Origin: a virus
Taxonomy: Duplodnaviria; Caudoviricetes
Reading direction: 5' to 3' (one strand)
Length of the DNA: 41,366 nucleotides
Virus record (IMG/VR): IMGVR_UViG_3300036822_000278
Coordinates: 1-41,366 of that record
The stretch's first letter is position 1. The number at the start of each line of letters is the position of its first letter. Below, in pieces: positions 12,528-12,570 of this stretch. Below the pieces are notes generated by a model. That model did no database searches. It was not told the origin of the DNA and worked only from the letters and a program-made list of their open reading frames with translations. The position numbers were made by a program, and so were the translations under genes.

Positions 12528-12570
12528 GAACACCCTGCACCTGCTGCGCCACGGAGACTACCATGGCGCA
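12528..12570 (+). promoter_or_regulatory. RBS/start-codon sequestering hairpin with upstream toehold
   Basis: TGCGCCA (12545-51) pairs TGGCGCA (12564-70); GG of GGAG pairs CC 12561-62. Confidence 0.6.

What the first reader, a model, noticed from the sequence alone, without database searches (positions are those of the whole stretch)
12528..12570. Candidate natural RNA toehold switch: PL leader RNA unlocks the operon leading to Q
Seen: TGCGCCA (12545-51) pairs with TGGCGCA (12564-70), and the GG of the GGAG RBS pairs with CC (12561-62), burying the RBS and AUG of the first gene of the coupled lexA-DBD/orf/rusA/ydfU run that precedes Q. The motif GAAC-N7-ACCTGCTGCGC covers the single-stranded toehold and 5 nt of the stem (12528-12549). 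It recurs with identical spacing in the non-coding PL leader (5646-5667), which is transcribed from the opposite strand, so PL RNA carries the complement (GCGCAGCAGGU...GUUC). Inference: the SOS promoter at 12097 makes antirepressor, but downstream genes are translated (and escape polarity) only after CI is inactivated and PL RNA invades the hairpin. This would be an SOS AND derepression gate that prevents premature Q/lysis. It is conceptually related to P1 C4 and Gifsy-1 IsrK antisense control but acts between distant operons. Caveat: CTGCTGCGC is a common string (also at 9415).
Basis: partly seen in the sequence, partly recalled or inferred. Interest (0 to 1): 0.85.

Follow-up and report, generated by a model that had tools for sequence, protein, structure and literature searches.

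The report
RNA key unlocking phage Q operon
Many lambda-like prophages carry two matching short sequences several kilobases apart that change together from phage to phage, and the RNA made from one likely pries open a hairpin that is predicted to block translation of the operon ending in the late-gene activator Q, so lysis genes would switch on only once the prophage is truly derepressed.

Summary
Observation confirmed; the core idea holds, details change. The 12520-12570 element is the two-hairpin 5' leader of the operon ending in Q. It has its own conserved -10 (79 of 79 distinct sequences), a YUNR loop presenting GAAC, a linker, and a stem burying RBS and AUG. The 5646-5667 copy, read as PL RNA, matches it, and the two sites co-vary, indels included, across 24 sequence classes (cognate duplex -25.4 vs -15.1 kcal/mol permuted, 0 of 100,000). 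A diverged family (phi80, HK639) found afterwards shows the same match. Published E. coli data show the predicted OFF state at Qin: an abundant 3' end just past the stem and Rho termination 136 nt into the locked gene. Folding predicts that the cognate PL RNA opens the RBS. Activation itself is untested, and the planned strand-direction (wobble) test was not significant. SOS input is optional (LexA box in 67 of 107; 1 of 68 in the phi80 family). No Rfam family matched, none of 10 paper searches described it, and the scan had not reported it before.

The parts
5646..5667 (-). Key: PL-strand segment GCGCAGCAGGU-N7-GUUC, complementary to the lock's linker, 5' stem arm and loop GAAC
5627..5645 (-). 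Conserved small hairpin plus AUAAGG directly 3' of the key; role unknown; used as the target-independent anchor to find keys
5678..5789 (-). Long interrupted inverted repeat (11 + 12 bp) 5' of the key; candidate RNase III substrate (inference); absent from several close relatives
5797..5860 (-). Optional structured module at the 5' end of the PL leader; covarying outer stem; also in ST64B/SfV-type phages
5896..5901 (-). -35-like TTGACC of the presumed PL; no clean -10 here (the consensus scan found none), so the PL start near 5866 is inferred from position
5366..5599 (-). First ORF of the leftward operon (77 aa, no family); its RBS is predicted not to change on pairing
6032..6445 (-). Short DicA-like HTH repressor with no peptidase-domain hit
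12097..12143 (+). SOS-type promoter (TTGCAT-17-AATAAT, read by eye) with LexA box CTGTATGTTTATACAG at 12128-12143
12152..12523 (+). 123-aa ORF at the position of Gifsy gftA/gfoA and Qin rem; antirepressor by position only (phrog_1813/340, unknown function; no alignment to Rem)
12505..12513 (+). Extended -10 (TG-n-TACACT) of the lock's own promoter, inside the end of the upstream ORF; start predicted near 12520
12520..12538 (+). Hairpin 1: covarying 5-bp stem, 9-nt loop with CUGA (YUNR) followed by AC; GAAC at 12528-31
12539..12544 (+). Single-stranded linker ACCUGC, the phage-specific part of the match
12545..12570 (+). Hairpin 2 (lock): buries GGAG 12553-56 and AUG 12563-65
12572..12691 (+). 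C-rich first ~40 codons (C minus G = +20), candidate Rho loading site; codes a 32-aa extension in front of the LexA DNA-binding domain
12563..15146 (+). Gated run: LexA-DBD-only gene, phrog_1212, rusA, DUF968/ydfU, Q-like antiterminator (phrog_753)
9410..9423 (+). Incidental 14-nt copy in coding sequence; not part of the system

Best explanation
The operon ending in Q starts with a conserved two-hairpin RNA leader whose second hairpin is predicted to hide the ribosome site and start codon, and the phage's early-left (PL) transcript carries a matching segment that likely pairs with it, opens the hairpin and so would license Q and lysis only after the repressor has fallen. Steps: (1) A repressor-independent promoter makes the leader in the lysogen (conserved -10 shown here; start site published for Gifsy-1). 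(2) The first gene is not translated (predicted), Rho stops the transcript in the C-rich first codons, and a short RNA ending just past the stem accumulates (published for Qin). (3) After derepression PL RNA appears; its GUUC would kiss GAAC in the YUNR loop, then pair through the linker and displace the 5' stem arm (inferred). (4) Translation of the first gene suppresses Rho, and coupled translation runs through rusA/ydfU to Q (inferred). In this window SOS acts upstream, through the LexA-controlled ORF 12152, a likely antirepressor.
For: Covariation: 107 distinct lock/key pairs, with the key found by an anchor that uses no lock sequence. Cognate duplex -24.4 vs -15.8 kcal/mol permuted over 61 unique combinations (z -15.8); one per class, n=24, -25.4 vs -15.1, 0 of 100,000 permutations. 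Matched insertions in Gifsy, Qin, Serratia-type and other classes. Out-of-sample: phi80 and HK639 have a different stem sequence and a matching key; 47 of 67 phi80-type loci hold the key within the fetched flank; L563 changes the same base at both sites. Structure: 92.6% of cells paired vs 30-41% for slid controls; 6 of 14 pairs change on both sides. Loop Y is C or U in 82 of 82. -10 at a fixed place in 79 of 79 vs at most 26 of 79 at control offsets. Opening cost of SD-AUG 14.5 alone, 7.3 with cognate, 11.3 with non-cognate, 12.8 with shuffled RNA (n=61); lock opens by more than 2 kcal in 47 of 47 while the PL gene's RBS closes in 0 of 47. First-gene C minus G averages +8.0 (n=57) vs -1.9 for 415 other starts. 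PMC7815308 supplements: orphan 3' end at 1644572/3 in all 3 conditions (47,630-75,263 reads), 12 nt after the Qin lock's AUG; Rho end at 1644448 (score 3.28, p 1.3e-5); 3' end at 572349/50 in the DLP12 lock. PMC4643027 supplement: primary TSS for SL2582 in uninduced cells, mapping within about 10 nt of the predicted start.
Against: No experiment shows activation or the duplex. The planned wobble-direction test was not significant (18 vs 14, p 0.60), and duplex energy favoured the opposite strands in 45 of 61; only post hoc interior-only counts lean the expected way (15 vs 4, p 0.019; 11 vs 4, p 0.12; 9 vs 2, p 0.065). Non-cognate keys also lower the opening cost by more than 2 kcal in 43 of 61. 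In the window only 11 contiguous pairs plus 4 form, and the predicted complex keeps part of the stem. Permutations ignore relatedness. My search pattern fixed much of stem 2 in the main family. 61 of 212 main-family and 20 of 67 phi80-type loci showed no key; L504 and L580 have the anchor with a non-matching key. The Qin 3' end could come from rem/hokD read-through; I found no K-12 TSS row. No ydfA chimera in 12 of 16 Hfq-CLASH files. No usable RNA run covers this window.
Confidence: 0.72

Rival explanations
1. Same two RNAs and still activating, but by another step: the duplex triggers an RNase cut that removes the 5' arm, or blocks Rho or pausing directly, without needing translation of the first gene.
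For: Rho termination lies just downstream at Qin; DLP12 has a 3' end inside the pairing region; predicted complexes leave part of stem 2 closed.
Against: The stem always contains SD and AUG, even with different sequences; the first genes are unrelated but all begin inside the stem; 11-17 bp is short for RNase III (recalled).
Confidence: 0.12
2. Direction reversed or negative: the abundant short lock RNA mops up or destabilises leaky PL transcripts in the lysogen, or PL RNA represses the Q operon (P1 C4 / P4 CI-like logic).
For: The lock RNA is very abundant in uninduced K-12; the key sits 25-45 nt upstream of the first PL gene; wobble and energy tests do not fix the direction.
Against: The PL gene's RBS closes in 0 of 47 while the lock opens in 47 of 47; the key pairs with the anti-RBS arm, never with SD or AUG; the operon is already OFF without PL RNA.
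Confidence: 0.08
3. The two copies are DNA sites for a phage protein whose specificity co-evolves with both.
For: Same DNA orientation; most differences are few; strand tests inconclusive.
Against: Matched insertions of 5-8 nt inside the site and variable GAAC spacing; the match coincides with covarying RNA stems, a YUNR loop and the linker; no protein common to all carriers was seen among 25 PL-operon ORFs or the first genes.
Confidence: 0.06
4. Chance, an old duplication or a module-swap linker, with no interaction.
For: CTGCTGCGC-type words are common; spurious local matches score as high as real ones (9410 copy).
Against: Anchored position next to a fixed motif in every class; within-genome matching across 24 classes plus a second family, which shared ancestry of either site alone cannot keep.
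Confidence: 0.02

Closest known systems
Gifsy-1 IsrK / orf45-anrP (PMC4825925; abstract, sections 6 and 10 read)
   Same: Phage RNA pairs in trans, activates translation of a locked transcript, coupled downstream gene; same phage
   Different: IsrK acts on its own read-through isoform downstream of Q. This key comes from the leftward operon 4-10 kb away and acts on the leader upstream of Q. The paper notes that leader's TSS (1,600 nt before antQ); the sections I read give it no RNA control.
Phage lambda N / HK022 put antitermination (recalled; annotation)
   Same: An early-left product is needed before Q is made
   Different: RNA acting in trans on translation, not on RNA polymerase. It coexists with N (phi80) and put (HK639), so it is not merely an N substitute. 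No lock was found in lambda, P22, HK022, 933W or ST64B.
P1 C4 / P4 CI antisense RNAs (recalled; Rfam c4 families)
   Same: Two separate pairing boxes; translation-coupled Rho termination
   Different: Those repress, are made from the same operon during lysogeny, and no Rfam model matched here.
YUNR U-turn antisense systems such as hok/Sok (PMC6562991, passages read)
   Same: YUNR loop on the target presenting the next 3-4 bases
   Different: Those antisense RNAs are cis-encoded, fully complementary and inhibitory.
Synthetic toehold switch (recalled)
   Same: RBS in a hairpin loop, AUG in the stem, trigger invades from the 5' side
   Different: Natural; short partial invasion (5 of 7 stem pairs), extra loop contact, output amplified by Rho polarity.
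Gifsy LexA-antirepressor induction (PMC3121763, passages read)
   Same: LexA box, small ORF, then irsA-position gene; short repressor
   Different: The passages read list irsA as third gene of the LexA operon with unknown role and describe no RNA gate.

Membership tests
Any Rfam 15 family (incl. C4, IsrK) | Covariance-model hit at gathering score | tested here: not met
   0 hits in the window; only chance-level hits, E 1.2 and 2.7, at the two sites
Trans-acting activating (anti-antisense) RNA | Target has a stem that sequesters RBS/AUG | tested here: met
   (prediction plus covariation)
Trans-acting activating (anti-antisense) RNA | Regulator complementary to the inhibitory 5' arm, conserved by covariation | tested here: met
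Trans-acting activating (anti-antisense) RNA | Pairing strands are PL sense and target sense | tested here: inconclusive
   supported only by gene layout
Trans-acting activating (anti-antisense) RNA | Pairing raises expression in vivo, rescued by compensatory mutants | not testable with these tools
   needs reporter fusions
Translation-coupled Rho attenuator | Rho-dependent end in a C-rich stretch after the locked start | tested here: met
   C-rich in 95% of 57; Rho end published for the Qin homologue only, not for this window
YUNR recognition loop | YUNR in a hairpin loop 5' of the bases that pair first | tested here: met
   Y in 82 of 82; UGA was a filter, though 337 of 365 viral stem-2 hits had it; U-turn geometry untested
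P1 C4 / P4 CI immunity RNA | Repressing RNA made in the lysogen from the target operon | tested here: not met
   Key lies in the repressed leftward operon 4-10 kb away and avoids SD/AUG
Gifsy-type SOS antirepressor switch | LexA box upstream of a small gene; repressor without peptidase domain | tested here: met
Gifsy-type SOS antirepressor switch | The small protein binds the repressor | not tested
   no family name or Rem similarity

The most novel reading that the evidence does not exclude
A widespread, unrecognised RNA checkpoint in lambdoid development: the early-left mRNA itself is the trans-acting key that licenses Q synthesis. It runs across Gifsy-1/2, Qin, DLP12, mEp237, phi80 and HK639, comes in dozens of partly orthogonal lock/key variants, and could let one induced prophage unlock the lysis programme of a co-resident one.
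Probability: 0.65. Interest if true: 0.92.

Novelty: new variant of a known kind. Interest (0 to 1): 0.86.

Why it matters
It would answer how phages whose Q operon has its own or an SOS-driven promoter avoid lysing before excision and replication genes are on. It would explain an abundant orphan RNA end in E. coli K-12 and the silence of the DLP12 rusA operon: PMC4118853 says promoter-supplying insertions are needed there, and DLP12's annotation shows no leftward early operon. It adds a layer to long-studied phages (phi80, Gifsy, Qin) and offers a natural library of lock/key riboregulators. A blastn with one Qin-type leader region matched 2,854 of 5,426 complete E. coli genomes (the query included part of rem).

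Tried and rejected
Rfam: nothing. 'RNA replaces N' as a general claim: rejected, because phi80 has N and the system. In the main family no N-like hit appeared among 25 PL ORFs, and the 2 Arg-rich hits in 61 leaders were not followed up. 'General SOS AND gate': rejected; the first LexA count used a faulty 15-nt pattern and is void. Wobble and strand-energy tests: no support as planned. The genome-contig scan and the order-wide pattern search (30 of 401 genomes, controls also hit) were mostly chance matches and are not used for prevalence. Unanchored best-match search gives spurious hits as strong as real ones, hence the anchored method. Eight pairs with a 3-mismatch anchor were dropped before counting (L026, L032, L070, L083, L390, L399, L413, L447); two looked real and six spurious. 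Three chance hits (L162, L213, L214) were dropped from structure counts, and alignment A1 used 60 of 119 distinct leaders. A three-way-junction idea for the hairpin next to the key was not kept, because Qin- and Serratia-type sequences do not fit. TSS tables for K-12: unreadable, empty or not held. No fold or complex job was needed.

Full report
Setting. The window is a lambdoid prophage: int, xis and exonuclease leftward; a short DicA-like repressor (6032-6445), cro, cII-like, O and P; then a LexA box (12128-12143), a 123-aa ORF, and a coupled run of LexA-DBD gene, phrog_1212, rusA, DUF968 and a Q-like gene.

Observation. The hairpin over RBS and AUG is the MFE (z about -3). A second hairpin lies upstream (12520-12538) and holds GAAC in its loop. 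Rfam has no model for either site.

Relatives. Both sites recur in the same phages (SPN3UB, FSL SP-016, Chris1, mEp237). Gifsy-1 and -2 carry a matched insertion at both sites, and Qin in E. coli K-12 has a third variant at both. I collected loci by a protein query and by stem-2 patterns. Of 492 pattern hits, 363 had the loop word upstream and 212 had at least 4 kb of upstream DNA. 151 of these had the PL-side anchor, which uses no lock sequence (115 distinct pairs); 61 had none. Some of the 61 have a key behind a variant anchor (L043, L054, L056, L064, L077); others are cut by the flank or are chance hits. After dropping 8 weak-anchor pairs, 107 remain, giving 61 unique combinations in 24 classes. 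Cognate duplexes average -24.4 kcal/mol against -15.8 permuted; with one pair per class, -25.4 against -15.1, reached by 0 of 100,000 permutations. This ignores relatedness, but shared ancestry alone does not keep two sites 4-10 kb apart matched through insertions.

Independent check. A covariance model of the lock hit mEp237, Gifsy-1/2 and Qin strongly, DLP12 and phi80 weakly, and nothing convincing in lambda, P22, HK022, 933W or ST64B. The weak hits are a second family with a different stem that still buries RBS and AUG. The leftward operons of phi80 and HK639 carry the anchor followed by a key matching their own lock, downstream of N or putL. Among 67 such loci with enough flank, 47 have the key. 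In the four keyless ones I inspected, the flank ended about 1-2 kb beyond cI. L504 and L580 are true mismatches.

Anatomy of the lock. A -10 hexamer lies 11-13 nt before the loop word in 79 of 79 distinct sequences, against at most 26 at control offsets, although the upstream DNA is unrelated. PMC4825925 (section 6) places the antQ start 1,600 nt upstream, and a primary TSS for SL2582 is listed in uninduced cells in PMC4643027's supplement (part 47). Mapped onto LT2 it falls within about 10 nt of the predicted start (the strains differ). The two helices are 92.6% paired, against 30-41% when slid; 4 of 5 pairs of hairpin 1 and 2 of 9 of hairpin 2 change on both sides (much of stem 2 was fixed by my pattern). 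The loop reads CUGA or UUGA in 82 of 82, a YUNR motif that presents the next 3-4 bases (PMC6562991, passages); here these bases pair with the key's GUUC. First genes differ (IrsA/DUF1367, LexA-DBD, an extended phrog_1212, short leaders), yet their first 120 nt are C-rich (+8.0 vs -1.9 for 415 other starts).

OFF state in vivo. In PMC7815308's supplements the Qin lock has an orphan 3' end 12 nt after its AUG in all three conditions (47,630-75,263 reads) and a Rho-dependent end 136 nt after the AUG (score 3.28, p 1.3e-5). DLP12 has an end 5-6 nt past hairpin 1. The main text never mentions prophages. Whether the Qin RNA starts at the internal promoter or reads in from rem is not shown.

ON state (predicted only). 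The cost of opening SD through AUG+6 falls from 14.5 to 7.3 kcal/mol with the cognate PL RNA, to 11.3 with non-cognate and 12.8 with shuffled RNA; cognate beats the non-cognate mean in 60 of 61 (some PL segments extended upstream of the likely start). In a second run on 47 of the 61, the lock opened in all 47 and the first PL gene's RBS closed in none. For the window the values are 14.9 to 4.9-5.7, and for phi80 12.3 to 3.9, against 10.5 with the window's key. In many phages the key lies within about 50 nt of a PL-like promoter.

Against. The planned wobble test gave 18 vs 14, and strand energies leaned the other way in 45 of 61; post hoc interior counts gave 15 vs 4, 11 vs 4 and 9 vs 2. Non-cognate keys partly open the lock. 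No chimera was found in 12 of 16 Hfq-CLASH files, where dicBp is normally repressed (bioRxiv 2023.04.14.536235, passages). No RNA data exist here for this window.

SOS. A LexA box precedes 67 of 107 main-family locks (control 6 of 107) and 1 of 68 phi80-type locks. In this window it likely drives an antirepressor, as in Gifsy (PMC3121763, passages); that role rests on position alone. SOS thus acts upstream of PL, and the lock also guards against SOS read-through into Q.

Literature. Ten searches returned no description of this pairing. The library lacks most subscription papers. Seen: listings for all; sections of PMC4825925 and PMC7067206; passages of PMC3121763, PMC4118853, PMC6562991, PMC7815308 and the bioRxiv preprint; supplement rows of PMC7815308, PMC7067206, PMC4643027 and PMC7213987; nothing useful from PMC4782308 or PMC6131387. 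Statements on N, put, C4/CI, RNase III and toehold switches are recalled. Five look-ups of earlier scan findings did not show it.

Verdict. The feature is real, widespread and apparently undescribed. It works most likely as an activating antisense RNA coupled to Rho polarity (0.72). It is not a member of any curated family tested, and its role as the licence for Q is inferred, not shown.

Noticed in passing
window 5797-5860 (-): A separate structured module at the 5' end of the PL leader with a covarying outer stem (5 of 13 predicted pairs change on both sides in 10 sequences). It also occurs in ST64B, SfV and mEp460-type phages; ST64B has no lock hit. No Rfam match; could be an RNA antiterminator.
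   Followed up: partly
window 5678-5789: Long interrupted inverted repeat inserted between that module and the key; absent in L001-L004; possible RNase III site that would free the key.
   Followed up: partly
window 976-991: Second LexA box, between int and the 298-aa ORF 1-897 (-), which has no NCBIfam hit.
   Followed up: no
window 12563-12970: The first gated gene is a LexA DNA-binding domain without peptidase; once unlocked it might re-close SOS boxes, including 12128-12143 (speculation).
   Followed up: no
L136 14306-14585 (K-12 Qin, between rem and ydfU): A 92-codon ORF starts inside the lock; RefSeq K-12 annotates nothing there. A homologue matches phrog_1212.
   Followed up: partly
L497 8315-8390 (DLP12): Intact lock with compensated stem (z -6.8) in front of ylcH-ybcN-rusA-quuD; the annotated prophage shows no leftward early operon, which may explain why rusA is silent.
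   Followed up: partly
L496 8787-8810 (phi80 'IR4'): The annotated inverted repeat IR4 is the locking stem; it opens an unannotated ylcH-like ORF of about 30 codons ahead of ybcN.
   Followed up: partly
window 17249-17678 and 18686-19047: The spanin-like gene pair appears twice, the second copy apparently degraded, around a 263-aa ORF.
   Followed up: no
window 9680-11887: AT-rich moron block (methyltransferase, membrane protein, HTH_73, unknown ORF) between P and the SOS promoter.
   Followed up: no
L504, L580: Mosaic prophages whose PL key does not match their lock: natural tests of cross-activation or bypass.
   Followed up: no
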